DNA of 64,000 nucleotides from an uncultured Bacilli bacterium (GTDB lineage Bacteria > Bacillota_I > Bacilli_A > RF39 > UBA660). The position numbers and the translations under genes are program-made. The notes under the pieces were generated by a model. That model did no database searches, was not told the DNA's origin, and was given only the letters and a program-made list of their open reading frames with translations. Numbering within the stretch: position 1 is the first letter of the stretch; each line of letters begins with the position of its first letter. Where the stretch lies: positions 78,197 through 142,196 of the forward strand of contig CAKPRO010000001.1 in the NCBI GenBank assembly GCA_934182615.1, in the 5' to 3' direction. Positions 36,087 through 61,437 of this stretch are shown here, piece after piece.

Positions 36087-36091
36087 CAAGT

Positions 36092-36288: not shown

Positions 36289-36290
36289 TT

Positions 36291-36341
36291 AAAGACTACA
36301 GACTTTAATGTACACTGAGAGATATAATATAGCTCGAAGTG
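36291..36341 (-). repeat. REP-like ~50-nt element (copy a), directly 3' of the gyrA stop
   Basis: Minus-strand form CACTTCGAGCT...TCTCAGTGT...CATTAAAG-TCTGTAGT-CTTTAATG. Shares 5' motifs and a hairpin with conserved loop with the copies at 47452, 56438, 56594 and 61391. Confidence 0.6.
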
Positions 36342-36354
36342 AAAAAAAAGAAAG

Positions 36355-38883
36355 CTATTCACTTTCCTTTTCGATATTTTCACCATTAATATTATCATCA
36401 CTAACTTCTTCTCTATCAACAATAGAAGTAGAACTAACAATACTATCTTCTTTTAAATTAATAAGTTTAACACCTTGAGTAACTCTACTCATAGTAGAAA
36501 TCTTATCAACAGCCAATCTAATAATAATACCAGAATCAGTAATAATCATTAAGTCTTTACTATCATCAACTGTCTTAAATGACACAATAGAACCATTCTT
36601 TTCAGTAATATTAACAGTCTTAACACCTTTACCACCACGATTAGTAATTCTATATTCATCAACAGGTGTCTTCTTACCATAACCCTTTTCAGTAATAACA
36701 AGTACATACTCATTAGGTTCAACAATTTCCATACCAACAAGTATACCACCATCAAGATTAATACCTCTAACACCAGAAGCACTTCTACCCATAATTCTAA
36801 CAGCATCTTCATTAAATCTAACCATTCTACCATTAGAAGAAGCCATTAATATCTCATCATTGCCAGTAGTTTTCTTAACAGATACAAGTTCATCATCATC
36901 TTTTAAAGTAATAAACTTCTTACCATTATTCCTAATACTATCAAATTCAGATATATCAGTCCTTTTAATTAAACCACTTTTAGTAGCAAATACCAAACAC
37001 TTGTATTCATCATTATTAGATATCTTCAATAAAGAAGTAACCTTTTCATCTTTATCTAAAGATAATAAATTAATAATAGGTAATCCTTTAGATTGTCTAC
37101 TGTACTCAGGAATCTCATAACCCTTAATTCTATATACTTTACCCTTATTAGTAAACATAAGAATATAATCATGACTAGTCGCATTAATCAAATGCTCTAC
37201 AAAATCCTCTTCATTAGTAGCCATACCTTTAACACCCATACCACCTCTATTTTGAGTTTTATAAGTATCAGCAGGTAATCTCTTAATATAACCCTTATTA
37301 GTTAAAGTAATAACAACATTCTCAACAGGAATCAAAGATTCATCTTCAATATAATCAATAGCAGTCATATCAATATGTGTTCTTCTCTCATCAGCATATT
37401 TATCTTTAATTTCAAGCATTTCAGTCTTAATAACCTCAAGAATCTTCTCTTCACTAGCTAATATTTCTTCTAATTCCTTAACTAATTTTTCAAGTTCAGC
37501 AATCTCTTCTTCAATCTTAGATTTTTCAAGTCCAGTAAGTCTCTTCAATCTCATATCAAGAATAGCTTGAGATTGAACCTCTGATAAAGCAAAATTAGAC
37601 ATAAGTCCAGCTTTAGCCTCATCGTCATCAGCAGACTCTCTAATAATCTTAATAACTCTATCAATATTATCAAGAGCAATCTTTAAACCATCTAATATAT
37701 GTAATCTATCCTTATATCTCTTTAAATCAAATTGACATCTACGATAAATAACATGTTTCTGATGATCAATATACTTCTCAATAATCTCTCTTAAACCAAG
37801 TGTTCTAGGACTTCCATCCACAAGCATTAAGAAATTAATACCATAAGAAGTCTGAAGTTGCGTATGCTTATATAAGTTATTTAAAACAACATTAGCATTA
37901 GCCTCTTTCTTAACATCAATAACAATCTTAATACCCTCTAAAGCCGATTCATCACTTAAATTAGAAATACCATCAATAACCTTATCTCTAACAAGTTCAC
38001 CAATTCTTTGAATCAAAGCCTTCTTATTAACCTGATATGGAAGCTCTGTAATAACGATTCTGTGCTTATTATGAGTCTCTTCTACAGTAGCCATACCTCT
38101 AATAGTAATAGCTCCTCTACCGCTCTCATATGCCCTTTTAATGCCACTATTACCAAGAATAACACCAGCAGTAGGAAAATCAGGTCCCTTAATATATTGC
38201 ATAAGTTCAGTAACAGTAATCTCTGGATTATCAATATAAGCAACACATCCATCAATAACTTCACCTAAATTATGTGGTGGAATATTAGTAGCCATACCAA
38301 CAGCAATACCCATATTACCATTAACTAATATATTAGGAAATCTACTAGGTAATACAACAGGCTCTTTTCTCTGACCATCATAATTCTCCGAAAAATCAAC
38401 AGTATCCTTATTTAAATCTCTTAAAAGTTCCATCGATATCTTAGCAAGTCTAGCCTCAGTATAACGACTAGCAGCTGCTCCATCACCATCAATAGAACCA
38501 AAATTACCATGTCCATCAACAAGTGTATGTCGATAAGTAAAGTCTTGAGCCATTCTAACCATAGATTCATAAATAGCAGAATCACCATGTGGATGATAAT
38601 GACCCATAACAGCACCAACAGCATTAGCAGATTTCTGATATTTCTTATCAGGAGTCATACCCTCTTCATATAAAGTATATAAAATTCTTCTATGAACAGG
38701 CTTAAGACCATCTCTAACATCAGGAAGAGCTCTAGCAACAATAACACTCATTGAATAATCAAGGAAAGACTTCCTCATTTCACCAACAATATTAACTGCT
38801 ACTTTTCTATCTCTCTCATGATTATTATCTTCACCCATATCTTCTATATTCAAATTTTTATCTACATTCTTATCTTCCATCAT
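36355..38883 (-). CDS. gyrA: DNA gyrase subunit A
   Basis: 842 aa with the active-site Tyr region, a QRDR-like segment and C-terminal beta-pinwheel repeats. Confidence 0.97.
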
Positions 38884-38890
38884 AAACCTC

Positions 38891-40810
<1,920 letters not shown>

Positions 40811-40826
40811 CTATCACCTTCCTGCA

Positions 40827-41927
40827 TCAAATTATTTCCCGGGAAATAATTTTACCATTTTCTATTCTATAAACATTAGCTTTATTTCTCACATTTTTAT
40901 CAATATTTTCAATATCCGTAGTAGTAACTATCGTTTGAATATCATTATCTAAATATTTAATTACCTTATTTCTCTTATCAATATCTAATTCACTAAATAT
41001 ATCATCCAAAAGTAAAATAGGCGTATCAGACAAAACATCCGTAAATAATTTAACTTCTGCTAACTTAAGAGCAAGTACAGCACTCCTTATTTGTCCCTGT
41101 GAACCATATAAAGATAAATTCTTTCCATTCAAATCAAAATAAAAATCATCTCTATTAGGTCCAATAAAAGTAATCTTATACTGAATTTCTCTTGATAAAT
41201 TACTTTTAAGTTTATCTTTAAATAAATTATTATCTAAATTACTAACATTAGAAGTATATATCATCTTAAGTCCTTCTAATCCTGTAATAGAACTAAATAT
41301 ATCATCTATATATTTATTAACTAAGTCTACATATTTCCTTCTAAAATTATAAATAACTATTGATAAACCAATATATTTATCATTAAGAATATCTAAATAA
41401 TTCATATCACTCTCTTTATTAATATTAATAATCTTCAAAAATTCATTTCTTTGACGTAAAACTAAATTATAATTATTTAAATTTGCTAAATAAATCTTAT
41501 TAATTTGACTAATTTGAATATTAAAGTATTTTCTTCTACAAGATGGACTATCTTTAAATATTCTAATACTATCACTACTAAAAAGAATAACATTCATTTT
41601 AGAAATATAGTCACTTAATTTTTTGATCTCTTTTTTATTTATCTTAACAACCTTACCATTCTCATTAATTAATAGTTCAAGTTCATCATAAGAACCATTA
41701 TAATCAACAATTCCTTTAATCATTGAATATCTACTATTAAAATTAATAAGATTCTTATCACTAATAGATAAAAAAGACTTCGTAACAGCAAGTACATAAA
41801 TAGATTCTAGTAAATTAGTTTTTCCTTGAGCATTATCTCCTATTATAATATTTAAATTATTATTAAATTCTAATAAAATATCATCATAATTACGATAATT
41901 TTTTAAATAAATTTTTTGTAATTTCAA
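40827..41927 (-). CDS. recF: DNA replication and repair protein RecF
   Basis: GDNAQGKTNLLE Walker A and an ABC signature; 366 aa. The last eight codons (KIISREII) and the TGA stop are supplied by a Noc-binding palindrome. Confidence 0.95.
   Translation of the reverse strand: MKLQKIYLKNYRNYDDILLEFNNNLNIIIGDNAQGKTNLLESIYVLAVTKSFLSISDKNLINFNSRYSMIKGIVDYNGSYDELELLINENGKVVKINKKEIKKLSDYISKMNVILFSSDSIRIFKDSPSCRRKYFNIQISQINKIYLANLNNYNLVLRQRNEFLKIININKESDMNYLDILNDKYIGLSIVIYNFRRKYVDLVNKYIDDIFSSITGLEGLKMIYTSNVSNLDNNLFKDKLKSNLSREIQYKITFIGPNRDDFYFDLNGKNLSLYGSQGQIRSAVLALKLAEVKLFTDVLSDTPILLLDDIFSELDIDKRNKVIKYLDNDIQTIVTTTDIENIDKNVRNKANVYRIENGKIISREII
40833..40848. promoter_or_regulatory. Noc-binding-site palindrome forming the recF 3' end (part of a 29-bp repeat identical to 53707-53735)
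   Basis: CAAATTATTTCCCGGGAAATAATTTTACC at 40827-40855 is identical to 53707-53735. Confidence 0.7.
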
Positions 41928-42053
41928 TATAAAGTCATTTTCTTGCCCATATTTTCACCTTTACTAATCTCATGTACCCCTATACATATATAATTATACC
42001 ATATTTCAATAAAAATTAAAAGAAAAAACACATATTTTCTATGTATTTTTTCC

Positions 42054-42509
42054 TTATTTTTCAACGGTTTTTCTCATAATTCCATTTAAATATTTTTCTA
42101 TCTTTATACACTTCGTAATTTGATTATCAATCGTAGTATAAGGTACCTTAATATTCATCTCTTTACCATTATCAAAATATATTTTTGTACCATTACTTTC
42201 TTTAACATATCTAGTAATATTATTATAAGCAAGCCATATACATTTCTTAGAACTAGGAGTACATGTAGGAAAGAAAATAATCATATTATAAGAAGATACA
42301 ATAATAGGAGTCTTAATATAATAATTAAAAATATCAATAACAAATTGCCTCTGAATATTATAAGAATTACCATAAAAATTACACCCATATTTAAGTAATT
42401 TAAGACAATCAATACTCAAATAAAAATCCTTATTCTTCTCCACAACATAAGTACCATATCCATTAGAAGTAAAGCACAAAACATCATCAGTAAGAATATA
42501 ATTTCTCAT
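42054..42509 (-). CDS. comK: ComK family protein (competence transcription factor family)
   Basis: Alignable to B. subtilis ComK across the conserved core: CNFYGNSY / CRFFGSSY; KTPIIVSSYNMIIFFPT / KPPIMVDPSNQIFLFPT; FDNGKEMNIKVPY / FSNGKTMELPISY. The start is assigned to the ATG at 42509, which has a GGAGAGGGGGA RBS. Confidence 0.7.
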   Translation of the reverse strand: MRNYILTDDVLCFTSNGYGTYVVEKNKDFYLSIDCLKLLKYGCNFYGNSYNIQRQFVIDIFNYYIKTPIIVSSYNMIIFFPTCTPSSKKCIWLAYNNITRYVKESNGTKIYFDNGKEMNIKVPYTTIDNQITKCIKIEKYLNGIMRKTVEK

Positions 42510-42707
42510 AAAATCCCCCTCTCCACATATAAAAATATGTACCATGTATTAAAGCATATAATCATGTCGAATTTTATCAAAATATGTCGTAAATTATCAA
42601 AAATTTTCCTTTTCTTAACATTTCTATCATCAAAATTACTGTTTTATCACAAAAAAAATAGATAAAAGAATCAAATCCCTTATCTATTAAACAAATATAA
42701 ATCAAAA

Positions 42708-43823: not shown

Positions 43824-43832
43824 TTTTATCAT

Positions 43833-43974
43833 CCTCTTTCTTTTATTATTTATTTATTATATTATTATTATTATGCTGTGGATATTGTGGAAAACTCACC
43901 TTTACCCTTGTTTTATATACTTTTACTTATCCACAATACCTGTTGATAACTTCAAACTTTTCCACTATCAACAA
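43833..43974. other. oriC part 2 (dnaA-dnaN spacer): DnaA-box cluster plus AT-rich unwinding element
   Basis: Perfect TTATCCACA at 43927-43935. Variants: ATATCCACA (43878-43886, reverse), TTTTCCACA (43887-43895, reverse), TTATCAACA (43941-43949, reverse), CTATCAACA (43965-43973). A pure A/T run at 43840-43875 lies next to the dnaN start. Confidence 0.8.
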
Positions 43975-45345
43975 CTATATTCTCTTTTTTAACTCCTCAA
44001 TTACTGTTTGTAACTGATAATTTGTCTCTAAATCTTTCTCTATTTTTTGATATGCACTTATTATTGTTGAGTGGTCTCTACCTCCAAAGTAAGTTCCCAT
44101 CTTTGGATATGACTCATTTGTCATTATTCTACACAAGTATATAGCTATTTGCCGCTGATAGTTTATATCCTTACTTCTTTTTTTACCTTTTAAATCTTCA
44201 ATATCTATCTTAAAGTACTCACAGACAATTCTCTGAATCCTATGAATATCATTTTTATATACACTACGTTCACTAATTTTATCTTTTAAAGCCTCAATAG
44301 CAATATCTAAAGTAACAACTCCATGATTCATCATTAGTGCATAAGCAAAAACCCTTGTAATTGCTCCTTCTAACTGTCTAACATCGGAATCATTAATATT
44401 AGCAATATACTCAATGACTTCAATCGGAATATCTTCCGCTGCCTCCTGATGAGATATCTTCCTTTTAATAATATCTACTCTCAGTCCAAAATCAGGTGGA
44501 GTGATATTAGCAGTAAGACCCCAATTAAACCTTGTAATAAGCCTATTTTCTAACATCTTTAAATCATCAACAGACCTGTCGGAAGCTATAATAATTTGTT
44601 TATTTGAGTCATGTAACTGATTAAAAGTATGGAAGAATTCTTCTTGTCCTTTAGTAGCGGACCCTAAAAATTGAATATCATCAATAATTAGAACATCAAT
44701 ATTCCTATACTTATTCTTAAAAGAATCAATCTTATCAAAACTATTCTTCTCATTATTTCTAACCGCCGCTATATAATCATTAACAAACTGTTCACTTGAC
44801 ACATACAAAACCTTCTTATTCGTATTTTGAATAATATAATTACCAATAGCATGCATTAAATGTGTTTTACCAAGTCCACTTTTACCATATAAAAATAAAG
44901 GATTATAAGCTTTACCAGGTTTTTCCGCCACCGCTCTAGCAGCAGTAAAAGCAAACCTATTCGAGTTACCTACAATAAAACTATCAAAAGTATATTCGCT
45001 ATTTAGATTAGCGGAAGCACTAGTTTGATGTGGAACTCCCATACTTTCATTAGAAGTACCAATAATAACCTCTTCATTATTATCACTAATTTCATTAATT
45101 TCGTTTTCTAAAATAAATTTAAAATTAAAATTTGTTCCCGTAATAGAATTAAAAGTTTCTTCAATATCATCAATATAATTTTCTTCTAAATGTTTTTTAT
45201 GTAAAGCTAAAGGAACGATAATAGTGGCAGTACCACCATCTAATTTATATAATTTAGTATCCTTAAACCAAGTATCATAAGATAAAGGAGTAATACGTTC
45301 TTTAATTTTATCAAGAAATTCATTCCATAAATTATCCGTATTCAT
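43975..45345 (-). CDS. dnaA: Chromosomal replication initiator protein DnaA
   Basis: 456 aa with an AAA+ domain (GKSGLGKTHLMHAIGN) and a C-terminal DnaA-box binding domain. Confidence 0.97.
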   Translation of the reverse strand: MNTDNLWNEFLDKIKERITPLSYDTWFKDTKLYKLDGGTATIIVPLALHKKHLEENYIDDIEETFNSITGTNFNFKFILENEINEISDNNEEVIIGTSNESMGVPHQTSASANLNSEYTFDSFIVGNSNRFAFTAARAVAEKPGKAYNPLFLYGKSGLGKTHLMHAIGNYIIQNTNKKVLYVSSEQFVNDYIAAVRNNEKNSFDKIDSFKNKYRNIDVLIIDDIQFLGSATKGQEEFFHTFNQLHDSNKQIIIASDRSVDDLKMLENRLITRFNWGLTANITPPDFGLRVDIIKRKISHQEAAEDIPIEVIEYIANINDSDVRQLEGAITRVFAYALMMNHGVVTLDIAIEALKDKISERSVYKNDIHRIQRIVCEYFKIDIEDLKGKKRSKDINYQRQIAIYLCRIMTNESYPKMGTYFGGRDHSTIISAYQKIEKDLETNYQLQTVIEELKKRI

Positions 45346-45439
45346 ATCAAAACCTCCTTAATCAAATCTGCCATTAATCTTATTATATCTCAAAAAAAAA
45401 TTTTGTCTAGATATTTTTTTTAATTAACAGGTAAAATAA

Positions 45440-45580
45440 CAAGTTATCCACAACTTATCAACAATATAATACCATATAAAATAAGACTTTAAAAGACTTT
45501 TCCACAATTTTTGTCAATTTTTGTTGTCAACAGTCAACAGCTTTACTTTTCCACAGCCCTGTGGATATTGTGGATAAATA
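45440..45580. other. oriC part 1 (upstream of dnaA): DnaA-box cluster
   Basis: TTATCCACA at 45445-45453 and 45569-45577 (reverse); TTATCAACA at 45455-45463; TTTTCCACA at 45498-45506 and 45547-45555; ATATCCACA at 45560-45568 (reverse). Confidence 0.8.
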
Positions 45581-45609
45581 AAAAAAGCCTTGATTTATAA
45601 GGCTTTATT
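45581..45609 (-). terminator. Intrinsic terminator of the HerA-like gene
   Basis: AAGCCTT-gatttat-AAGGCTT hairpin followed by a U-run on the minus strand. Confidence 0.5.
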
Positions 45610-47370: not shown

Positions 47371-47451
47371 AATCGCCCTTCTTTCTATTCTAAGTAAATT
47401 ATACCAAATAAATATCAAAAAATAAATAACTTTTTAATAATTTTTTAGAGT

Positions 47452-47495
47452 AGTTCGCACTTTGTTGCTCACTATTTTTAAAGCCTAGGGTCTTT
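47452..47495 (+). repeat. REP-like element (copy d) in the ltaS-like 5' region
   Basis: AGTTCGCAC...GCTCACTAT...TTTTAAAG-CCTAGGGT-CTTTAAAA. Confidence 0.55.
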
Positions 47496-47596
47496 AAAAA
47501 ATAATTTTAAGCCAAAATTGTCTTAAAATTAATATTTTTCTTCAATTATTTACAAAATATTAAATATATAGTATAATTTCATTAGTGGTGATTTTT

Positions 47597-52363: not shown

Positions 52364-52763
52364 AAATGTCTTTTATTTTCCCACTAAATAGAGATTCAAT
52401 AATCTCTTTTTTTTCATCTTTATCCTTAGATAAAAGCAAACTAGCCGTTAAAGTAATCTTTTCATTATTACCATTCTTATATTTATCATATTCTTCCCTT
52501 ACATTAATATATTTAGCATCCTCATCACTGTCAATATCATTCATAGTAAATATATAAGCCTTAAATCTATTACTATTCTTATTATCATAAATATTAAGAA
52601 TAATATTGTCTCCTAATATTTTATATTGAATATAGACATACTCTTCCTTTTTAATATCAAAATCATAACCAAAAATATCATTTACAAAGTCATTAAGTAA
52701 CCCCTCATTCATTACATCAATTAAAGATAATCTAAATATTTCGTCATTCATAAAATTCACCAC
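52344..52763 (-). CDS. Hypothetical protein (139 aa, acidic, no recognised domain)
   Basis: ORF with a plausible start; overlaps the tmcAL 3' end convergently by 20 nt. Confidence 0.3.
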   Translation of the reverse strand: MVNFMNDEIFRLSLIDVMNEGLLNDFVNDIFGYDFDIKKEEYVYIQYKILGDNIILNIYDNKNSNRFKAYIFTMNDIDSDEDAKYINVREEYDKYKNGNNEKITLTASLLLSKDKDEKKEIIESLFSGKIKDIFSHYFL

Positions 52764-52807
52764 TTTTAAATTACCATATAGATAATAGTAAAGTCAATAA
52801 AAAAAAT

Positions 52808-52845
52808 AAAATGTAACCAAATGGGTTACATTTTTAGTGTCAAAT
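52808..52845. terminator. Bidirectional hairpin terminator downstream of mutM
   Basis: ATGTAACC-aaatg-GGTTACAT with flanking T/A runs. Confidence 0.45.
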
Positions 52846-53672: not shown

Positions 53673-53711
53673 ATATATCACCTCTTTTATTACTTAAATT
53701 ATTTTCCAAAT

Positions 53712-53727
53712 TATTTCCCGGGAAATA
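53712..53727. promoter_or_regulatory. Noc-binding-site palindrome immediately 3' of polA (29-bp copy identical to the recF 3' end)
   Basis: CAAATTATTTCCCGGGAAATAATTTTACC at 53707-53735. Confidence 0.7.
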
Positions 53728-53734
53728 ATTTTAC

Positions 53735-56329
53735 CTATTTAGCCTCATACCAATTATTTCCCAACTCTATATCTACATCGAGTGGTACCTTTAAATCAAA
53801 TACATTAGTCATAGTATTATATACAATCTCTTTAACTTTATCAATTTCATCATCGTATACATTAAATATTAATTCGTCATGTACTTGAAGAATCATCTTA
53901 CTCTTAATATTTTCTTTTTCAAATATTTCATCAATTTCAATCATAGCTTTTTTCAAAATATCTGAAGCTGACCCTTGAACAGGAGTATTAAGAGCCATTC
54001 TTTCACCCATATTTCTAATCATATAATTAGTACTCTTTAATTCATCAATAACTCTCTTTCTATTCATAATAGTTTTAACATAGCCATTCTTTTTAGCAGT
54101 TTCAATTTCTTTATCCATATAGTCTCTAACACCTGGATAAGTATCAAAATATTTATTAATAAATTCTTTAGCCTCTTTAACTGGAATACCTAAGTCTTCA
54201 GCTAAGCCATAACTACTAATACCATATAAAATACCAAAGTTAACAGCTTTAGCCTGCCTACGCATATTTTTAGTAACACCTTCTTGTGGTACTTTAAATA
54301 TATCCATAGCGGTCTTAGTATGAATATCTATACCTTCATTAAAAGCATTTATTAAATCATTAACTCCTGATAAATGAGCAAATACTCTAAGTTCAATCTG
54401 TGAGTAGTCAGAAGATAAAATAACACTATTACTTTCTGGAATAAAAGCCTTTCTAATAAGTCTACCATACTCACTTCTCATCGGAATATTTTGTAAGTTA
54501 GGTTCAATTGAAGATAACCTACCAGTTCTTGTTAAAGTCTGTGTATAAATAGTATGTATTTTACCATCATCACTAATACAGTTAATCATACCATCAATAT
54601 AAGTAGAATAAAGCTTAGTAAGTGCTCTATATTCTAAGATACAATTAACAATAGGATAATCCACTAATTTTTTAAGAACATCAGCATCAGTAGTATATCC
54701 CCCACTTTTATTTTTCTTTCCATAAGGAAGATTAAGCTTTTCAAATAAAATTTCACCAAGTTGTTTAGGAGAATTAATATTAAATTCACATCCAGCATAA
54801 TTATAAATATCCTTAGTAATAAGTTCTAATTTAATTTTAATTTCTTCTCCCATTTCTTTTAAAATATTTTTATCAACTCTAATACCTTCAATTTCCATCT
54901 TAGCAAGTACCTTTGCTAGAGGCATTTCAATATTTTCAAATAGATAAATATTATCTTCTTCTTTCATCTTATTATATAGTTCTTTCTTTGAAGTATAAAT
55001 AAATTTAGCTTTAAGAATAGCTCTCTTACTAGCTTCTTCATCACTTACTACTTCTTTCTTATCATAAATAGGAATATTAAAATTCATATTATTAGCAAGA
55101 TAAGCAATATCATCTTTAGTTTCGTAGTTAAGTAAATAAGCACTAATCATAGTATCAAAAACAATCTTAGGTACTTTAATACCATATCTATTAAATATTA
55201 CAATTAACTTCTTATAATCATAAGTAAATAAATTAAATTCAGTATTTAAAACATTATAATTATTTTTTAATATATCAAAAGGAATATAGTAGGCCAAATT
55301 ATTATTATATAAAGAAATACCAAGTAATTCAGCATCATGATAATTACCAATAGTAGTATCTAACCAGATAGCGGTCTCTTCATTAATTTTAACTTCATTA
55401 ATATCAGTAATGATTTTAAAGTTATCTATACTACTATGTTCTTCTTCCTTTTTATCTTCTTCAATTACATCATCTAATTTTTTAAGAAGAGAATGAAAAC
55501 CTAATTCTTTATAAATATTAGTAAGTTCTTCAATATTACAATTTTTATATTTTAAATCATCAAAACTAGCATCAAGAGGAACTTCTCTATATATTGTAAC
55601 TAAATCTTTACTATAATAAGCATCTTCTTCCCCATCAATAAGTTTAGTTTGTGTAGCACCTTTAATATTATTAATATTAGCATAAATATTTTCAATAGTG
55701 GTATATTCACTAACTAATTTAATAGCTCCTTTTTCTCCAATACCACGAACACCAGGAATGTTATCTGAAGCATCTCCCATTAAAGCCTTTAAATCTATCA
55801 TATGAATAGGTTCAAAACCATATGTCTCGTTAAAAGTTTTTCTATCCATCATAATATAATCTTTAGTTTTAAGTAATTTAACCGTTGTCTCATCACTAAT
55901 TAACTGAAGTAAATCTTTATCACTACTTACAATTAAAGCCTCATATTCTGGATCTTTCTCACACCACATAGATACAGTACCAATAATATCATCGGCTTCA
56001 TAACCGGCACATTCTAAATATTTAATTCCCATTGCTGCAAGTATTTTCTTAGCAATTGGAAATTGTACCTTTAAGTCATCAGGAGTTTCTTTTCTTCCAT
56101 CTTTATATCTTTCATATTTTTCATGTCTAAAAGTCTTACCTATATCAAAAGCCACCATCATATATTCTGGTTTCTCATCATTAACAATTTTATTAATCAT
56201 ATTAACAAAACCATATACTCCATTCGTAGGAAATCCATCTTTATTTCTCATTATATTACCTGTATAAAGAGTAGCATAATAGCTTCTAAATAAAAGATTA
56301 TTACCATCTACTAAAACTATTTTTTTCAT
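53735..56329 (-). CDS. polA: DNA polymerase I
   Basis: 864 aa with a 5'-3' exonuclease domain, a 3'-5' exonuclease-like domain and family A polymerase motifs (DYSQIELR, QVHDEL). Confidence 0.95.
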   Translation of the reverse strand: MKKIVLVDGNNLLFRSYYATLYTGNIMRNKDGFPTNGVYGFVNMINKIVNDEKPEYMMVAFDIGKTFRHEKYERYKDGRKETPDDLKVQFPIAKKILAAMGIKYLECAGYEADDIIGTVSMWCEKDPEYEALIVSSDKDLLQLISDETTVKLLKTKDYIMMDRKTFNETYGFEPIHMIDLKALMGDASDNIPGVRGIGEKGAIKLVSEYTTIENIYANINNIKGATQTKLIDGEEDAYYSKDLVTIYREVPLDASFDDLKYKNCNIEELTNIYKELGFHSLLKKLDDVIEEDKKEEEHSSIDNFKIITDINEVKINEETAIWLDTTIGNYHDAELLGISLYNNNLAYYIPFDILKNNYNVLNTEFNLFTYDYKKLIVIFNRYGIKVPKIVFDTMISAYLLNYETKDDIAYLANNMNFNIPIYDKKEVVSDEEASKRAILKAKFIYTSKKELYNKMKEEDNIYLFENIEMPLAKVLAKMEIEGIRVDKNILKEMGEEIKIKLELITKDIYNYAGCEFNINSPKQLGEILFEKLNLPYGKKNKSGGYTTDADVLKKLVDYPIVNCILEYRALTKLYSTYIDGMINCISDDGKIHTIYTQTLTRTGRLSSIEPNLQNIPMRSEYGRLIRKAFIPESNSVILSSDYSQIELRVFAHLSGVNDLINAFNEGIDIHTKTAMDIFKVPQEGVTKNMRRQAKAVNFGILYGISSYGLAEDLGIPVKEAKEFINKYFDTYPGVRDYMDKEIETAKKNGYVKTIMNRKRVIDELKSTNYMIRNMGERMALNTPVQGSASDILKKAMIEIDEIFEKENIKSKMILQVHDELIFNVYDDEIDKVKEIVYNTMTNVFDLKVPLDVDIELGNNWYEAK

Positions 56330-56414
56330 AACATCACCAAGTCTTTCTATATATAATTATACTAAAAAAAAGCTTTAAAATAAAGTCTTTCTATGTTATT
56401 TTATTTATATAAAT

Positions 56415-56677
56415 TATTTCCCAGGAAATAATTTATTAGTTCGAATCTACGTTTCTCACTATCATTAAAGCCTAATGTCTTTAATGAAAAATATGAAGCC
56501 TATAAAAATAGTCTTCATATTTAACAACATTTTTAATTTAGGTATTATTTTATATAATATTTATTCATTAAAATAACAAAAAACACTTTAAATAAAGACT
56601 ACAGGCTTTATTTAACAGTGAGAGATTACAAGCTCGAACTGAAAAAAAATATTTCCCAAATTATTTCCCGGGAAATA
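56415..56677. repeat. REPIN-like composite: Noc site + REP-like copy b (plus orientation), ~105-bp spacer, REP-like copy c (inverted) + Noc site
   Basis: TATTTCCCAGGAAATA at 56415-56430 (1 mismatch); REP-like 56438-56483; inverted REP-like 56594-56641; TATTTCCCGGGAAATA at 56662-56677 plus an ATATTTCCCAAA half-site. Lies in the polA-polC intergenic region. Confidence 0.65.
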
Positions 56678-56681
56678 TTTT

Positions 56682-59600
56682 CTAAAATAAACTAAGTTGA
56701 CTAGTCTCAGGCATACCTTCAAATATACCCATCGTTCTCATCTTATCAATTAAAGTTTGAGATACCTTACATCTAGTTTGAAAATCCTCAATACTAATAA
56801 ATGGAGCTCTTGCAGCCTCTTTTTCAATATTCTTAGCAACAACATCACCAAGACCATCAATAGCTCTAAATGGAGGAATAATAGTCTTATCATCTTCTAC
56901 TGTAAAGATAGAACCCTTACTTTTATATAAATTATAAGGAGCAACCTTAATACCTCTTGCAGCCATCTCTAAAGCAACCTTTAAAGATTCAGATATACCA
57001 TTCTCTTTATTAGAGGCATCAAAACCCTTATTCTCAATTTCAATAATAGAGTTCTTAATACTATCATATCCTCTAATCATAGCCTCAATATTAAAATCAG
57101 TAGCCTTAGTAGTATACCAACTAGCATAGAAGTATACAGGCATATGTACCTTATACCAAGCAATTCTAAAAGCACTTATAACATAAGCAGCAGCATGTGC
57201 TTTAGGGAACATATACTTAATCTTATGACAACTATCAATAAACCAAGATTCAATACCAGCCTTTTCCATAGTTTCTTTATGCTTAGCCCAAGTTTCTGGA
57301 TCTTTACTAGCCTTACCCTTACGTACAAATTCCATTATTTTAAATGCCTTAATAGGTTCAACACCATGATACATCAGATAAACCATTATATCATCACGAC
57401 ATCCAATAACATCTTTAAAAGGAACAATATTATTCTTAATAAGTTCTTGTGCATTACCAAGCCATACATCAGTACCATGAGATAATCCAGATATCTTAAT
57501 AAGTTCCGCAAAAGTAGTAGGTTTAGTTTCCGCTACCATAGAAATAGTAAAGGGAGTACCAAACTCAGGAATACCAAGAGTACCAGTATCACACATAATT
57601 TGTTCATTAGTAACCCCAAGTACCTTAGTAGAAGTAAATATACTCATCGTATCCTTATCATCAAGAGGAACCTTAAGAATATCCGTACCAGATAATTCTT
57701 GAATTAATCTAAGTTGTGTAGGATCAGAATGACCTAATATATCAAGTTTAAGTAAATCTTGGTCAATAGCATGATAATCAAAGTGTGTCGTTCTCCATGC
57801 ACTAGTAGGATCTTCAGCAGGAAATTGAAAAGGTGTAAAGTCAGATACATCCATATAATCAGGAACAACAACAATACCACCAGGATGCTGACCAGTTGTT
57901 CTCTTAACACCAGTACACCCCATCGCCAGTCTCTCAATTTCACAAGATCTCTTATTCATAATACCCTTATCTTCAAAGTATCCCTTAACAAAACCAAAGG
58001 CTGTTTTTTCCGCAACAGTACCAATCGTACCAGCCCTATAAACATTATCAACACCAAATAAAACTTTAGTATATTCATGAGCAGACGCTTGATTCAAATC
58101 CGAAAAGTTAAGATCAATATCAGGAACCTTATCAGCATTAAACCCAAGGAAAGTAGCAAATGGCATATCTTGCCCATCTTTATACATATGCTCACCACAA
58201 TTAGGACAAATCTTATCAGGCAAATCAAATCCACTAGAATAAGTAGCACCTAAATCATTACCATTATCATCTTTAAAAATACTATTTTTACATTTAAGGC
58301 ATCTATAATGAGCAGGAAGAGGATTAACCTCAGTAATACCCATCATCGTAGCTACAAATGAAGAACCAACACTACCTCTTGAACCAACCAAGAAACCTTC
58401 ATCATTAGAGTGTTTAACAAGTCTTTGAGCAATCAAATAAATAGGATCAAATCCCCCACCAATAACACCACCTAGAGACTTTTTAATTTTTTTATCTAGT
58501 GCCTTATCAGTCATTTCACCATCTTCTTCACTCCAATGTTTTTTAACATAATCACTAACAAGCATCTTAACCTCATCAAATCCGTTAACTAAAGTATTAT
58601 GTAAATTTTCAAATAACTTAGAATCAAGTTCATCATCACTAATATTAGGATTATCTTCACTAATAATTTCTTTCCAGCATTTGTAGACAATATCACCATA
58701 TAATTCCTTAGATATTCTCTCTTCAATATTATGTGGTAAATCATCACCATACCATTCTTTAGCCCTATCAAATACTAAGTCAGTAACCACTCTAGGACAA
58801 TCCAAATAAGACTTACCATCATCACTCTTAACTCTAGGTGAAAAAGGAATACCACCAGTATCAATAATAACCTCAATCTCATCTACCATATCAAGAACTT
58901 TATTAGTATTAGTAACAACAATATCATAAGCAAGTTCTTCTCCTAGAAAAGCAAAATCATTAAGCATTTCCTCAGTAGTTCTAAAGTGCTGTGAAGGAAT
59001 ACTCTTAATACTACTCTTAGCAAGAGGATGTCTACCACCACCAGGAACCTTCTGATTAACAATAATTTCTCTATATATCTTATCTTCCCTGCTAAAATGA
59101 TGAACATCCCCAGTAGCCACGATAAGCTTACCAGCCTCACGAGTAGCATTAATAATCTTCTTAATATGTTCCTTAATTTCATTAACATCTTTAAAATCAC
59201 TAGTCTGAATCAAATGGTCATATACTTCCGGAGGCTGTACTTCAACATAATCATAGAAATTAATAATATTAGTAAGTTCTTCTCCCTCTTTACTTCTCCC
59301 CTCAATAAAAACTTCGCTTTCGTAGCAGCCACTACCAATAATAAGACCTTCTCTAAGTTCATTAAGTTTACTTCTAAGAATTCTTGGTGTCTTATATAAA
59401 TAAGTAGTATTAGCAAGAGAAATAATTTTAAATAGATTCTTAAGTCCTGTCTTATTAAGAGCAATAGCATTAAAATGATAAGTTCTACCAAATTTATATA
59501 TTTCATCTTTTGGAATAAGTTTCTCTAAATCACTTATCTTCTCAAAGTTCTGTGTAAATAATTTACCAAGCATCTTGTAGAAAACTAAAGCAGTACCTTC

Positions 59601-61304
59601 AGCATCATAATCAGCTCTATGATGGGCGTCTTCATCCCAAGGAACATTATATCTTTTAACTAATGCAGATAAACTATGCCTAGAATAGCCAGTATCTAAC
59701 GCTCTAGATAACTCCAAAGTATCAATAACAGTACTATTAAATTCACCAAGATTATATTTTTTCATAGCACTAGAAATAAACGAAATATCAAACTTAGCAT
59801 TATGAGCAACCATTGGATTATCTCCTGCCCATTCTAAGAATCTCTTTGTAACATTCTCTTCATTGTCTTTACCTTTTACCATATCATCAGTAATACAAGT
59901 AAGTTCTGTAATTTTATCAGGGATATGTCTTCCTGGATCAATTAATTCATCAAATCTATCAATAATAGCACCATCTTTAATCTTAACAGCACCTATTTCA
60001 ATCATTTGATCAGCCCCACCAGCATTAAAACCAGTAGTCTCTGTATCAAAAACAACATAAGTAAGATCCTTAAGAATTCTATCATCAGGTCTAACAACAA
60101 TATTAACAGTATCATCAACAACAGTAAGTTCAGTACCATATAAACCCTTAAAATGTTTACTAGGATCTTCTATCTTTTTATTATAACTTTTAATAATATC
60201 ATAAGCAATAGGAAAGGCTTGACAACCACTATGATCGGTAATAGCAACCCCTCTGTAACCCATATCAATACACTTACTAACAAGTTCACAAGTATGTTTA
60301 TTTAAATCAACATTAGTAATACCATCCATCTGACTCATCATTGTATGAGCATGAAGTTCAACTCTCTTAATAGGGGCATTATCTACTACCTTTTCTTTTT
60401 CAGGACTCTCTGTCTTATCAACATCTTTATATCTAGTAGTAAAAGTAAGTTCGTTAGAATACTTATCCATAGCTACTTTACCATAAAAGTTATACCAAGA
60501 ACCAACCCTAAGTAAATCTTTAATTCTAGCATATTCATCATTATCTTTAGTAAACATCTTAACATAAATACTATCACTATTATCAGTAACCTTAAGAGTA
60601 ATAATCTTATATCCACTCTTAGATTCAAACATATCCATACCAAATATCATCCCATTAATAGTAATATTATCTACTTCATACATTAAATCCTTAATAGGAG
60701 TAATACTAGTATCTCTCTTTGGTCTAAAGTATTTTTTTTCTTCTACTTTATCAGGAACACTTTCCTTTCTAGGAGACACCATACTAGGTATATTAACTAT
60801 TTTATCTTTTTCAATTTGATTAAGAATATCATTCTCTTTATTCTCACATAGATTTAAAACAAAATTACCATTAAATCCATATCTATTAAGCATTTCATTC
60901 AAATATTCTTTCTTTTCAGTCATATAAGCAAGCTCTGCTTTATTATAAACATCAAATATATAATTATCATTATCAATATTTAACTTTCTATCAATAAAAG
61001 TCTTATATTTAATACTCTCATCACTAAATAAATCTATTAATTTATCAAAATAATCTTCTAAATATTCATTACTATTATTATTCGTAGTAATAACAACATT
61101 AATATCTTTAATAGTCTTAAAAGTATTCATTATTTTATTACATAATTCATCATATATATATACAGGTAAAACTTTATCATTACTAATAATAAACTCCCAT
61201 AAATTATTTTTCTCATACACTATAATCTTATCAATACTAGCATTCTCTAAATAATCTTTGTTCATGCCTATTTGATTAAGCAATCTTTCCATTTTATCCT
61301 GCAT
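56682..61304 (-). CDS. polC: DNA polymerase III PolC-type (Gram-positive replicative polymerase)
   Basis: 1540 aa with an OB domain, a DEDDh 3'-5' exonuclease inserted in the PHP domain (FDTETTG), a polymerase core and a C-terminal region. Confidence 0.95.
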   Translation of the reverse strand: MQDKMERLLNQIGMNKDYLENASIDKIIVYEKNNLWEFIISNDKVLPVYIYDELCNKIMNTFKTIKDINVVITTNNNSNEYLEDYFDKLIDLFSDESIKYKTFIDRKLNIDNDNYIFDVYNKAELAYMTEKKEYLNEMLNRYGFNGNFVLNLCENKENDILNQIEKDKIVNIPSMVSPRKESVPDKVEEKKYFRPKRDTSITPIKDLMYEVDNITINGMIFGMDMFESKSGYKIITLKVTDNSDSIYVKMFTKDNDEYARIKDLLRVGSWYNFYGKVAMDKYSNELTFTTRYKDVDKTESPEKEKVVDNAPIKRVELHAHTMMSQMDGITNVDLNKHTCELVSKCIDMGYRGVAITDHSGCQAFPIAYDIIKSYNKKIEDPSKHFKGLYGTELTVVDDTVNIVVRPDDRILKDLTYVVFDTETTGFNAGGADQMIEIGAVKIKDGAIIDRFDELIDPGRHIPDKITELTCITDDMVKGKDNEENVTKRFLEWAGDNPMVAHNAKFDISFISSAMKKYNLGEFNSTVIDTLELSRALDTGYSRHSLSALVKRYNVPWDEDAHHRADYDAEGTALVFYKMLGKLFTQNFEKISDLEKLIPKDEIYKFGRTYHFNAIALNKTGLKNLFKIISLANTTYLYKTPRILRSKLNELREGLIIGSGCYESEVFIEGRSKEGEELTNIINFYDYVEVQPPEVYDHLIQTSDFKDVNEIKEHIKKIINATREAGKLIVATGDVHHFSREDKIYREIIVNQKVPGGGRHPLAKSSIKSIPSQHFRTTEEMLNDFAFLGEELAYDIVVTNTNKVLDMVDEIEVIIDTGGIPFSPRVKSDDGKSYLDCPRVVTDLVFDRAKEWYGDDLPHNIEERISKELYGDIVYKCWKEIISEDNPNISDDELDSKLFENLHNTLVNGFDEVKMLVSDYVKKHWSEEDGEMTDKALDKKIKKSLGGVIGGGFDPIYLIAQRLVKHSNDEGFLVGSRGSVGSSFVATMMGITEVNPLPAHYRCLKCKNSIFKDDNGNDLGATYSSGFDLPDKICPNCGEHMYKDGQDMPFATFLGFNADKVPDIDLNFSDLNQASAHEYTKVLFGVDNVYRAGTIGTVAEKTAFGFVKGYFEDKGIMNKRSCEIERLAMGCTGVKRTTGQHPGGIVVVPDYMDVSDFTPFQFPAEDPTSAWRTTHFDYHAIDQDLLKLDILGHSDPTQLRLIQELSGTDILKVPLDDKDTMSIFTSTKVLGVTNEQIMCDTGTLGIPEFGTPFTISMVAETKPTTFAELIKISGLSHGTDVWLGNAQELIKNNIVPFKDVIGCRDDIMVYLMYHGVEPIKAFKIMEFVRKGKASKDPETWAKHKETMEKAGIESWFIDSCHKIKYMFPKAHAAAYVISAFRIAWYKVHMPVYFYASWYTTKATDFNIEAMIRGYDSIKNSIIEIENKGFDASNKENGISESLKVALEMAARGIKVAPYNLYKSKGSIFTVEDDKTIIPPFRAIDGLGDVVAKNIEKEAARAPFISIEDFQTRCKVSQTLIDKMRTMGIFEGMPETSQLSLF

Positions 61305-61390
61305 AATATCACCTAAACTTCCTAAATAATATTATACTAAAAAAAAGAAGTAAATTAAACATATTTACATTCTTTTTACAAACTTTTTTA

Positions 61391-61437
61391 ACTTCAGAGC
61401 CTGTAGTCTCTTCCGTGTTATAGAAAGCCTAGGTCTT
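61391..61437 (+). repeat. REP-like element (copy e) in the polC upstream region
   Basis: ACTTCAGAGC...TCTCTTCCGTGTTA...TATAGAAAG-CCTAGGT-CTTTCTATA. Confidence 0.5.

What the first reader, a model, noticed from the sequence alone, without database searches (positions are those of the whole stretch)
36291..61437. New REP-like element family: ~50 nt with a covarying hairpin and conserved CCUNNNGU loop (5 copies)
Copies at 36291-36341 (-), 47452-47495 (+), 56438-56483 (+), 56594-56641 (-) and 61391-61437 (+) share a 5' block [A/C]GTTCGAGC...TCTCACTGT followed by a hairpin. The stems differ but stay complementary: CATTAAAG/CTTTAATG, TTTTAAAG/CTTTAAAA, TTAAATAAAG/CTTTATTTAA, TATAGAAAG/CTTTCTATA. 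The 7-8-nt loop is conserved: CCTAATGT, CCTAGGGT, CCTGTAGT, TCTGTAGT, CCTAGGT. Compensatory stem changes with a fixed loop are the signature of a selected structure. It could be a REP/RAYT substrate, a protein-binding RNA or ssDNA hairpin, or a 3'-UTR stability element. Copies occur in both orientations relative to neighbouring genes, which is typical of REP elements.
Basis: seen in the sequence. Interest (0 to 1): 0.7.

Follow-up and report, generated by a model that had tools for sequence, protein, structure and literature searches.

The report
Three-hairpin intergenic repeat in gut Bacilli
The five copies are real members of a small, lineage-restricted family of about 55-95-nt intergenic repeats made of two or three hairpins that share a conserved mismatched top; it resembles REP and BOX repeats, and its biochemical role is unknown.

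Summary
The anatomy needs correcting.

- **Structure.** The "5' block" is itself a hairpin (hp0). The unit is hp0-hp1, usually followed by hp2, and spans 55-95 nt.
- **The "loop".** It is a helix top: a G-C pair, a conserved C.U mismatch, a C-G pair, then a small or long apex (5'-AG-C-CU...AG-U-CU-3').
- **More copies.** Three degenerate relatives (F, G, H) lie in the window.
- **Stems.** They covary strongly: 98% paired, and 9 of 13 pairs show double changes.

The family occurs only in human-gut uncultured Bacilli/"Tenericutes" MAGs with PolC at least 81% identical to the window's. Three relatives at 74-79% lack it. Copy number is low (3-5 strict matches per genome). Copies sit in terminator-to-promoter spacers in every orientation. 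I found paralogous dispersal, presence/absence differences between species, one loop flip, one phage copy and no G.U excess. There was no Rfam, phage-database or plasmid-database match, and no Y1 transposase in the DNA held.

Best reading: a REP/BOX-like hairpin repeat of mobile origin, recognised through its mismatched top. The mobilising or binding protein is unknown. Interest is moderate.

The parts
36256..36341 (-). Copy A (three hairpins). hp0 is 36313-36341 (CACTTCGAG / CTCTCAGTG with an 11-nt loop). hp1 is 36285-36312 (TACATTAAAG-TCTGTAGT-CTTTAATGTA). hp2 is 36256-36284 (AAAAATGAAG-TCTTGGTGT-CTTCATTTTT). It begins directly after the gyrA-stop hairpin and its run of eight T (36342-36366).
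   Evidence: (51.5 bits)
47451..47531 (+). Copy B (three hairpins). hp0 has a compensated apex stem GCA/TGC (AGT-TC-GCA-CTTTGT-TGC-TC-ACT). hp1 is 47475-47500 and hp2 is 47502-47531. It lies in the divergent spacer between a HerA-like gene (-) and a sulfatase-family gene (+).
   Evidence: (64.8 bits)
56437..56522 (+). Copy C (three hairpins). hp0 has apex stem GAA/TTC. hp1 is 56462-56487 and hp2 is 56489-56522. It is antisense to the flanking genes, upstream of polA, and directly preceded by a Noc-binding-site-like palindrome.
   Evidence: (64.1 bits)
56588..56641 (-). Copy D (hp0 and hp1 only). hp1 is 56588-56615. It lies in the sense direction 41 nt after the polC stop codon, directly after a hairpin that contains a Noc-binding site followed by eight T (56642-56681).
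   Evidence: (74.5 bits)
61390..61479 (+). Copy E (three hairpins). hp0 has a pyrimidine internal loop (ACTTCAGAG / CTCTTCCGT). hp1 is 61418-61444 with a 7-nt apex CCTAGGT. hp2 is 61445-61479. It lies antisense in the NifU-to-polC spacer.
   Evidence: (45.1 bits)
23971..24062 (-). Copy F, a variant subfamily. hp0 is a perfect hairpin (CACTCTAAG-TCTTTAGT-CTTAGAGTG, 24037-24062). hp1 is 24006-24036. A conserved tail ...ATCTATTATATATAAGCA follows. It lies downstream of a SpoVT-like gene and upstream of the metS T-box leader.
   Evidence: I1; 16.2 bits
3299..3353 (-). Copy G: two tandem hairpins with the same top (3328-3353 CTTTAAAAG-CCTAAGGT-CTTTTAAAG; 3299-3327) and no recognisable hp0. It lies downstream of an AbgT-family transporter gene and converges on copy H.
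   Evidence: 25.7 bits
3170..3282 (+). Copy H: a degenerate F-type unit, 79% identical to F over 113 nt including the tail. Its stems carry mismatches.
   Evidence: I1; 19.1 bits

Best explanation
This is a low-copy, lineage-specific family of modular hairpin repeats. It is the same kind of thing as REP/BIME, BOX or bcr1 elements, but it belongs to none of those families.

**The unit (shown).** The unit is a polar tandem of two or three hairpins (hp0, hp1, sometimes hp2). Stem sequences are free to vary as long as they stay complementary. Each hairpin top is fixed: 5'-AG-C-CU...(A/G)G-U-CU-3', which gives a G-C pair, a C.U mismatch (C.T in DNA) and a C-G pair.

**History (inferred).** The family arose and spread in the recent ancestor of one group of human-gut uncultured Bacilli (RF39-like by my own placement). 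Whole units were copied into the non-transcribed spacers between a terminator-like hairpin with a T-run and the next promoter. Most copies then stayed at orthologous positions.

**Mechanism (inferred, no protein identified).** The units are recognised as folded single-stranded DNA or extruded hairpins by a structure-specific protein. That protein reads the mismatched top, which is the one feature that tells the two strands apart. This is the way Y1/HUH transposases read REP and IS200/IS605 hairpins.

**Present-day effect (inferred).** The copies probably act mainly as passive spacers. hp2, read from the opposite strand, is followed by a U-rich stretch and probably serves as an intrinsic terminator for the upstream gene in antisense copies.
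For: **Structure**
- RNAalifold independently predicts three hairpins. It leaves the mismatch unpaired and keeps the C-G pair above it in 11 of 11 sequences. Twelve of 28 pairs show compensatory changes.
- On 46 distinct sequences, 98.4% of cells are paired and 9 of 13 pairs show double changes. Controls with the partner slid by 1-3 columns give 36-60% paired.
- Top positions are 85-93% conserved, whereas the three central apex positions vary freely. In long apexes the helix continues above the mismatch and covaries: CCUAU/AUAGU, CCUAA/UUAGU, CCUAC/GUAGU.

**Restricted to one lineage**
- Scans of genomes and metagenomes find the family only in gut MAGs whose PolC is 81-99% identical to the window's.
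- Relatives at 74-79% identity have none in 72 kb. These include a syntenic NifU...polC-polA-fpg locus that still carries the Noc-site hairpins.

**Dispersal and turnover**
- A near-identical unit sits upstream of polC and directly after the mutL stop codon in one assembly.
- Subfamilies share hp1 and hp2 stems across unrelated flanks.
- Presence or absence differs between species downstream of polA, downstream of polC and in the glycosyltransferase/TmcAL spacer.
- The hp1 apex is flipped to its reverse complement between orthologues.
- One copy lies in a phage contig.

**Pointers to DNA rather than RNA**
- Every model hit is intergenic, and all four gene configurations occur.
- Stems are almost perfectly Watson-Crick. 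Of 975 pairs only 16 are mismatched, and G.T (3) is no commoner than A.C (5).
- The 10 nt upstream are 67% T against a 35% background. Sense copies follow a separate hairpin plus T-run.
Against: - No mobilising or binding protein was identified. No Y1 transposase was found in the roughly 1.3 Mb held, but no whole genome could be scanned.
- No terminal inverted repeats or target-site duplications could be defined at filled versus empty sites.
- Copy number (3-5 strict matches per genome) is far below that of typical REP or BOX families.
- Copies look concentrated around polC, polA, gyrA and the dcw genes. That could indicate a host function rather than parasitism.
- Orientation shows no bias relative to the dominant gene strand (4 to 4 in the window). 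IS200/IS605-type single-strand transposition would usually leave a strand bias.
- In about 6% of tops the mismatch is replaced by an A-U pair.
- Flanking spacers are still 75-85% identical between species. Conservation at orthologous sites therefore does not by itself prove selection.
Confidence: 0.45

Rival explanations
1. RNA-level cis element. The hairpins would act in transcripts as 3'-end protectors or auxiliary terminators, or as binding sites for an RNA-binding protein that reads the G-C / C.U / C-G top.
For: - The element is polar: the hp0-hp1-hp2 order and the C.U mismatch (rather than A.G) are always kept.
- The RNA fold is very stable (z = -6.1).
- Copies A, D, F and G lie in the sense direction 14-41 nt after stop codons.
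- In antisense copies hp2, read on the gene strand, is followed by a U-rich linker and, in the case I read (polA-upstream copy C, L031), is the only terminator-like hairpin after the upstream gene.
- A phage uses one copy directly downstream of a gene.
Against: - About half of the independent loci are antisense to both neighbours or lie in divergent promoter spacers. There the transcript would carry A.G, not C.U.
- Sense copies lie behind a separate hairpin plus T-run, so they should seldom be transcribed.
- There is no excess of G.U wobble pairs on either strand.
- No Rfam family matches.
- The consensus terminator scan finds nothing, although its G+C criterion does not suit this 27% G+C genome.
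Confidence: 0.2
2. Host chromosomal cis-site acting on DNA. The roughly 10-20 units per genome would be binding or extrusion sites for a clade-specific protein that serves as an insulator, manages supercoiling or organises the origin domain, alongside the neighbouring parS and Noc-site arrays.
For: - Eight units lie in this 64-kb dnaA-gyrA-polA-polC window, while whole genomes hold only 3-5 strict matches. All four strict matches of MAG MNTB01 lie on one 247-kb contig.
- The units are independent of orientation.
- By eye, they lie between inward-facing terminator-like hairpins.
- Noc-site palindromes abut copies A, C and D, and a cluster of seven parS sites lies 300 nt from copy A.
Against: - The spacing between the two AGYCT half-sites varies from 2 to 10 nt. 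This argues against a rigid duplex site, so any protein would have to read a hairpin.
- The family is missing from close relatives that keep the Noc sites at the same spacers. An essential role is therefore unlikely.
- Copies also lie by leuS, rnj, pepF, rpsJ, the dcw genes and in a phage.
- No candidate protein is known.
Confidence: 0.2
3. Independent small-RNA genes. Each unit would be a roughly 90-nt sRNA with three hairpins that present CCU-containing apexes, with hp2 as its terminator.
For: - The size and three-hairpin layout resemble multicopy Gram-positive sRNAs (own knowledge).
- A promoter-like TTTATA-17-AATAAT ends 5 nt before copy C. L017 has TTTACA-17-TATTAT a few nt before the unit (read by eye).
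Against: - Promoter-like matches are no more frequent than in shuffled sequence.
- No promoter is conserved across loci. Several copies start 0-1 nt after a terminator's T-run or overlap a stop codon (copy A; L073), which leaves no room for one.
- Copy D and the leuS and pbp2B copies lack hp2.
- The U-tract after hp2 is weak in the sense direction.
Confidence: 0.07
4. Relic of a tRNA 3' end, such as an integrase attachment-site duplication or a tRNA-derived element. The 5' block GTTCGAGCC / GTTCGAATC looks like a T-loop.
For: AGTTCGAATC in copy C and AGTTCGAGCC in the canonical form match the GTTCRANNC T-loop consensus (consensus from own knowledge).
Against: - The flanking bases do not form a T-stem.
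- The covariation supports the hp0 pairing instead: AGT/ACT to ACT/AGT or CAC/GTG, and GAG/CTC to GCA/TGC or GAA/TTC.
- None of the four distinct tRNAs found in the held loci has a matching 3' end.
- No integrase lies next to the copies, except one serine recombinase 331 nt from a single divergent copy.
Confidence: 0.03

Closest known systems
REP / BIME / REPIN elements of Enterobacteria and Pseudomonas, mobilised by RAYT transposases (PMC3116915, PMC3337134)
   Same: - Short extragenic hairpin-forming repeats found in both orientations.
- Mosaic intergenic arrangements, including convergent pairs (D/C and G/H).
- Family specific to one lineage, largely inherited vertically and stable in position.
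- Hairpin imperfections that distinguish the two strands.
   Different: - No GTAG-type tetranucleotide 5' of the hairpin foot.
- Hairpins are in direct tandem (hp0-hp1-hp2), not two inverted REPs.
- Stems differ between copies while the apex is conserved. In REPs the whole palindrome is conserved.
- A+T-rich rather than G+C-rich.
- About 10-20 copies rather than hundreds.
- No RAYT found (not properly testable here).
BOX, RUP and SPRITE repeats of Streptococcus pneumoniae (PMC3049150)
   Same: - Firmicute host.
- Modular units with extensive secondary structure, sited in intergenic DNA.
- Confined to one species group and nearly absent from relatives.
- Judged to be parasitic, with a low present-day transposition rate.
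- Can be co-transcribed with neighbouring genes.
   Different: - No sequence similarity.
- BOX is an A-Bn-C mosaic and RUP has IS-like terminal inverted repeats. The present units have neither.
- Much lower copy number.
- The conserved mismatched hairpin top has no counterpart described there.
IS200/IS605-family ends and their miniature derivatives (own knowledge)
   Same: - Two or more similar imperfect hairpins lie in direct orientation on one strand.
- Those hairpins are read as single-stranded DNA, through an unpaired or mismatched base, by a Y1 HUH transposase.
- No terminal inverted repeats and no target-site duplication.
- Insertion next to a short T-rich target.
   Different: - No tnpA or tnpB partner was seen.
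- No fixed tetranucleotide or pentanucleotide target: the upstream sequence is merely T-rich.
- No strand bias relative to the dominant gene (replication) direction.
- No guide or cleavage-site logic could be identified.
Intrinsic (Rho-independent) terminators
   Same: - A-tract, hairpin, T-tract geometry of hp2, especially when read on the opposite strand.
- Position just after genes.
   Different: - hp0 and hp1 have no U-tract.
- The conserved apex motif and the fixed hp0-hp1-hp2 order are not properties of terminators.
- Ordinary terminators without the motif coexist in the window (for example 192-218 and 52808-52834).
- Copies also occur in divergent promoter spacers.

Membership tests
REP/REPIN (RAYT-associated) | Imperfect palindrome of 20-40 nt repeated in extragenic DNA | tested here: met
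   Hairpins of 24-35 nt. All 176 model hits are intergenic.
REP/REPIN (RAYT-associated) | Conserved tetranucleotide (GTAG-like) 5' of the hairpin foot, with the whole palindrome conserved in sequence | tested here: not met
   The sequence 5' of the hairpins is only T-rich. Stems differ between copies and only the apex is conserved.
REP/REPIN (RAYT-associated) | Two REPs in inverted orientation form the mobile unit | tested here: not met
   hp0, hp1 and hp2 lie in direct tandem on one strand in every copy. Whole units are occasionally convergent (D/C, G/H).
REP/REPIN (RAYT-associated) | A single-copy RAYT (Y1 transposase) gene flanked by the repeats in the same genome | tested here: inconclusive
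   tblastn found no significant hit in the 1.3 Mb held (best E = 1.2). The queries were an IS200 TnpA and a RAYT-like sequence written from memory. No complete genome was available.
REP/REPIN (RAYT-associated) | Tens to hundreds of copies per genome | tested here: inconclusive
   There are 3-5 strict-pattern matches per species genome and 8 units in this 64-kb window. My estimate is 10-20 per genome.
BOX / RUP (pneumococcal repeats) | Sequence homology to boxA/B/C or RUP, with an A-Bn-C mosaic or IS-like terminal inverted repeats | tested here: inconclusive
   I saw no terminal inverted repeats at the unit ends. Direct sequence homology to the boxA/B/C or RUP consensus was not compared. The Rfam search of the copy C/D region found nothing, but I did not check whether Rfam holds models for these repeats.
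IS200/IS605-derived miniature element | Subterminal imperfect hairpins at both ends on the same strand | tested here: met
   hp0 and hp1/hp2 are co-oriented and share the same mismatched top.
IS200/IS605-derived miniature element | Fixed 4-5-nt target immediately 5' of the left end, and an autonomous partner with the same ends | tested here: not met
   The upstream 12 nt show only T-richness and no fixed word. No pair of separated hairpins flanking a transposase was seen. The neighbouring genes are housekeeping.
Intrinsic terminator | Stable hairpin immediately followed by a U-tract on the transcribed strand | tested here: inconclusive
   The consensus scan finds none, but it requires at least 3 G-C pairs. 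By eye, hp2 read on the opposite strand is followed by AUAUUUUUC. hp0 and hp1 lack U-tracts.
Any Rfam RNA family | Covariance-model match | tested here: not met
   At gathering threshold the window yields only a T-box leader and SRP RNA. With E up to 10, the copy C/D region gives only noise.

The most novel reading that the evidence does not exclude
The mismatched hairpin top (G-C / C.U / C-G) would be the recognition site of a dedicated protein that binds hairpins or cruciforms. The 10-20 units per genome would then form a third class of origin-domain cis-elements, acting as extruded DNA hairpins in chromosome organisation or replication-coupled control. They are concentrated around dnaA, gyrA, polA and polC, beside a cluster of seven parS sites and a series of Noc-binding sites. 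They would not be mere parasitic repeats.
Probability: 0.12. Interest if true: 0.7.

Novelty: new member of a known kind. Interest (0 to 1): 0.38.

Why it matters
Small dispersed hairpin repeats are well described in Proteobacteria and a few Firmicutes. They are essentially uncharted in the reduced, uncultured gut Bacilli (RF39-like) that are common in human metagenomes.

This family has an unusual conservation pattern: stems are free to vary, while a mismatch-containing top stays fixed. That pattern points to a structure-specific reader protein that has not yet been found.

In practice, the covariance model and motif allow these elements to be annotated. Annotation helps avoid false calls of sRNAs or terminators. 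The elements could also serve as lineage markers for this clade in metagenomes.

If the clustering around replication genes is confirmed on a closed genome, the family would become a tractable entry point into chromosome organisation in organisms that cannot be cultured.

Tried and rejected
- **Rfam.** At gathering threshold the whole window gave only a T-box leader and SRP RNA. At E up to 10 the copy C/D region gave only noise.
- **tRNA origin.** ARAGORN finds no tRNA in the window and four distinct tRNAs in the related loci. None has a matching 3' end, and the T-stem is not supported.
- **LexA (Cheo) box** (own knowledge). GTTCG is only a half-site, and no CGAAC lies 4 nt away. Rejected by eye.
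- **Phage and plasmid collections.** No meaningful match. The viral-contig scan with the canonical hp0 gave 0 hits. A looser double-top pattern gave one genuine phage copy, L168, and one hit (L169) that I could not read.
- **Y1 transposase.** No hit in the held loci. This is a weak test because the queries were written from memory.
- **Promoter and terminator scans.** At chance level or not applicable to this A+T-rich genome.
- **G.U versus A.C asymmetry, to pick the functional strand.** No asymmetry.
- **Clean filled and empty sites with target duplications.** Presence/absence was found at three loci, but the boundaries are blurred by other indels.
- **Mobile cassette between copies D and C.** Other species carry 2.4-5.6 kb there (an AraC-like gene as read by eye, a T4SS coupling-protein-like gene by Pfam, and small ORFs). 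This looks like ordinary gene content that the window species has lost.
- **Regulon of DNA replication and repair genes.** The neighbours include polC, polA, gyrA, mutL, addA and rmuC. They also include leuS, pbp2B, rnj, pepF, rpsJ, mraZ, murG and ABC-transporter genes, so this is not convincing.
- **The TTTCCCGGGAAA palindrome as part of the element.** It is the 16-bp Noc-binding site. It is present at the same spacers in a relative that lacks the element.
- **Literature.** Two full-text searches found no description of repeats in RF39.

Full report
**1.

The five sequences are at the stated coordinates and strands. A scan for hairpins closed by AG/CT, with an apex that starts YCT and ends GT, recovers the quoted stems and loops exactly. 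A covariance model (R1) was built from 24 related copies found elsewhere plus two of the window's own copies (A and E). Run over the window with filters off, it ranks the five copies first, at 45-75 bits (E = 6e-9 to 3e-16). It then finds three weaker relatives at 3327-3370(-), 3191-3247(+) and 24006-24062(-). The core pattern AAGYCTNNNGTCTT occurs six times against 0.04 expected from shuffles.

**2. Corrected anatomy**

The canonical form in related genomes is:

tAGTTCGAG-CCTATAGT-CTCTCACT at CATTAAAG-CCTAAGGT-CTTTAATG aaaaat ATGAAG-CCTATAAAATAGT-CTTCAT.

- **The 5' block is a hairpin (hp0).** It has a 3-4-bp basal stem, a 2x2 pyrimidine internal loop (UC/UC), a 3-bp upper stem and the same apex as hp1.
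- **hp0 covaries.**
  - Basal stem: AGT/ACT becomes ACT/AGT in copy A and CAC/GTG or CCCC/GGGG elsewhere.
  - Upper stem: GAG/CTC becomes GCA/TGC in B, GAA/TTC in C, and GGAG/CTCC or AAG/CTT elsewhere.
- **A third hairpin (hp2)** follows in copies A, B, C and E.
- **Independent prediction.** RNAalifold predicts the three hairpins on 11 diverse full-length units, and 12 of 28 pairs show compensatory changes. A single copy folds with z = -6.1.
- **Pair counts.** On 46 distinct hp0-hp1 sequences, 98.4% of cells are paired and 9 of 13 pairs show double changes. No shuffle of 500 reaches the observed covariation score. Controls with the partner slid by 1-3 columns give only 36-60% paired.

**3. The 'conserved loop' is a helix top with a mismatch**

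Apex positions 1-3 (C, C, U) and 7-8 (G, U), together with the closing A-G/C-U, are 85-93% conserved. Positions 4-6 vary freely.

In hp2 the apex is 9-15 nt long. There the helix resumes after the first C and covaries: CCUAU...AUAGU, CCUAA...UUAGU, CCUAC...GUAGU.

The invariant feature is therefore 5'-AG-C-CU / 5'-AG-U-CU. That gives a G-C pair, a C.U mismatch (rarely U.U) and a C-G pair. Among 1,729 distinct hairpins with stems of at least 7 bp in 1.29 Mb of related DNA, this is by far the commonest class, although that DNA was selected for carrying the element. Ordinary terminator-like hairpins without the motif coexist in the window. About 6% of tops have an A at the first position, which closes the mismatch.

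**4. Host and breadth**

The window has 27% G+C, a strong negative GC skew, and almost all genes on the minus strand. It carries dnaA, dnaN, recF, gyrB, gyrA, dnaX, polA and polC.

- **Genome scan.** A strict pattern scan of 185,579 species genomes returned 47 loci. About 35 come from human-gut 'uncultured Tenericutes/Bacilli' MAGs (Clostridium sp. CAG:302, Firmicutes bacterium CAG:321, UMGS1185, UMGS1739, UMGS610). The rest lack the element and are chance matches. Each genome has 2-5 strict matches.
- **Metagenome scan.** The record names that say so are human gut.
- **Divergence of carriers.** PolC in the carrier loci where it was compared is 81-99% identical to the window's, and PolA is 71-98% identical.
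- **Absence in relatives.** Three contigs from relatives with PolC at 74-79% identity (72 kb in all) have no model hit below E = 0.39 and no top-motif hairpins. One of them keeps the NifU...polC-polA-fpg synteny and the Noc-site hairpins after polC and polA.

The family is therefore young and confined to roughly a genus-level clade. This is the same pattern that led Croucher et al. to regard BOX, RUP and SPRITE as parasitic (PMC3049150).

**5. Genomic behaviour**

Model hits in 1.1 Mb of related loci fall into about 25 clusters defined by their flanks.

- **Many are orthologous across species.** Examples are downstream of polC (D), upstream of polA (C), the NifU-polC spacer (E), the HerA/sulfatase spacer (B), and downstream of leuS and pbp2B.
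- **There is also dispersal.** An E-type unit with the same hp1 and hp2 stems sits immediately after the mutL stop codon in the assembly that also has the polC copy. C-type units occur upstream of rmuC and downstream of polA. The F-type, with its ...CTATTATATATAAGC tail, occurs at three or more loci.
- **Presence or absence differs between species** downstream of polA, downstream of polC and in the glycosyltransferase/TmcAL spacer. The junctions are not clean enough to define a target duplication.
- **One orthologous set shows the hp1 apex flipped** to its reverse complement (CCATAAGT against ACTTATGG). This is a DNA-level event mediated by the palindrome.
- **One copy lies in a 31-kb phage contig,** antisense and directly after an HD-domain/kinase-like gene (domain read by eye).

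**6. Position and orientation**

No hit lies inside a long ORF. All four neighbour configurations occur: tandem sense, tandem antisense, divergent and convergent. In the window the strand split is 4 to 4.

The neighbouring genes are housekeeping: polC, polA, gyrA, mutL, addA, rmuC, leuS, pbp2B, rnj, pepF, rpsJ, mraZ, murG and parA.

The 10 nt upstream of hp0 are 67% T against a 35% background. In sense copies this T-run is the tail of a separate hairpin. Copy A follows GAAAG-tgaatag-CTTTC plus eight T, which overlaps the gyrA stop codon. Copy D follows a hairpin containing a Noc site plus eight T. In other species a different hairpin precedes the same D unit.

The hp1-hp2 linker is A-rich, so hp2 read from the other strand is followed by a U-rich stretch. 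My inference is that hp0-hp1 normally lies between inward-facing terminators and is seldom transcribed. The consensus terminator scanner cannot confirm this, because it demands three G-C pairs.

**7. RNA or DNA?**

Stems are almost perfectly Watson-Crick. Only 16 of 975 pairs are mismatched, and G.T (3) is no more frequent than A.C or C.A (5). In the model alignment only 2 cells changed on one side, against 85 that changed on both. An RNA under selection would normally tolerate G.U on its own strand.

Taken with the lack of orientation preference, the loop flip and the position behind terminators, this favours a DNA-level element, either single-stranded or extruded. A caveat applies. Quasi-palindrome template switching can keep DNA inverted repeats perfect without selection (own knowledge). 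The persistence of the C.T mismatch against that homogenising tendency is the stronger sign that the top is read by something.

**8. Comparison with known families**

- **Databases and literature.** There is no Rfam match, no meaningful match in the annotated phage or plasmid collections, and no description in two literature searches.
- **REP/REPIN.** The element works like these, but it fails the defining tests that could be run. It has no 5' tetranucleotide, it has tandem rather than inverted hairpins, and it has variable stems. The RAYT test was inconclusive.
- **BOX/RUP.** Its evolutionary behaviour is closest to the pneumococcal repeats. It has neither the A-Bn-C mosaic nor terminal inverted repeats, though sequence homology to the BOX or RUP consensus was not compared directly.
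- **IS200/IS605 ends.** The co-oriented, similar, imperfect hairpins recall these, but no fixed target word, partner gene or strand bias was found.

I therefore file it as a new member of the general kind 'small dispersed hairpin repeats', not as a member of any named family.

**9. Verdict**

The REP-like interpretation is partly supported. The mechanism is unresolved.

My best account (confidence 0.45) is a repeat of mobile origin, recognised as a folded hairpin through its mismatched top, now mostly fixed in terminator-to-promoter spacers, with hp2 co-opted as a terminator in some copies. The rivals are:
- an RNA-level 3'-end or protein-binding element (0.2);
- a host DNA site linked to the origin domain (0.2);
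- sRNA genes (0.07);
- a tRNA relic (0.03).

Interest is moderate.

Noticed in passing
window 33517-33532, 33574-33589, 36234-36249, 40833-40848, 53712-53727, 56415-56430 (one mismatch), 56662-56677: There are seven copies of TATTTCCCGGGAAATA against 0.01 expected. This is exactly the 16-bp Bacillus subtilis Noc-binding site used for the Noc-DNA crystal structure (bioRxiv 10.1101/2022.02.28.481274). Five lie in spacers next to recF/gyrB, gyrA, polA and polC, often extended into a hairpin followed by a T-run, so they may double as terminators. Two lie 57 nt apart inside the dnaX ORF. Those next to polC and polA are conserved at the same spacers in related MAGs, including a relative that lacks the hairpin repeat. 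No noc or parB gene lies in the window.
   Followed up: partly
window 35194-35968: Seven parS-like sites (TGTTCCACGTGGAACA with up to 2 mismatches; 0.01 expected) are packed into about 780 nt of non-coding DNA. Most are spaced about 150-160 nt apart and are embedded in longer direct repeats (family D1/D3). The stretch lies between a TadA-like deaminase gene and the SRP RNA. Such a dense, centromere-like array is unusual for a chromosome, where parS sites are normally scattered and often lie within genes.
   Followed up: partly
window 1-64000 (dnaA at 43975-45345): GC skew stays strongly negative (-0.2 to -0.47) and genes stay on the minus strand on both sides of dnaA-dnaN. DnaA-box-like TTTTCCACA sequences flank dnaA (43884-43925 and 45467-45508). 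Either the skew tracks the coding strand rather than replication, or the origin is not at dnaA.
   Followed up: no
L031:3201-5620, L036, L006, L025 (about 2.4 kb); L013, L023 (about 5.5 kb); compare window 56523-56587: Between polC and polA, related species carry a small gene block that the window species lacks. It comprises an AraC-like gene of 117-119 aa (annotation by eye), a 453-463-aa protein whose L087 homologue matches the Pfam family for type IV secretion coupling proteins, and ORFs of 97 aa or larger. In the window, copies D and C are therefore only 65 nt apart and convergent.
   Followed up: partly
L168:1391-1444 (IMG/VR UViG_3300008512_000079): A phage contig (endolysin, holin and tail genes as read by eye; 29% G+C) carries one hp0-hp1 unit (33 bits). 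The unit lies directly downstream of a 449-aa HD-domain/kinase-like gene next to a WYL-type regulator (both annotations by eye). This is the only copy found outside bacterial chromosomes.
   Followed up: partly
window 23719-23914 (-) and 36003-36089 (-): A T-box leader (113 bits) lies upstream of metS, and a small SRP RNA (53 bits) lies downstream of gyrA. Both are ordinary. Copy F sits just upstream of the T-box promoter region.
   Followed up: no
window 56376-56403; L002, L021, L025 upstream of polA: The hairpin AAAGACTT-aaaata-AAGTCTTT in the polA promoter region resembles the repeat's top, but with an A-U pair in place of the C.U mismatch. It could be a degenerate or ancestral form.
   Followed up: no
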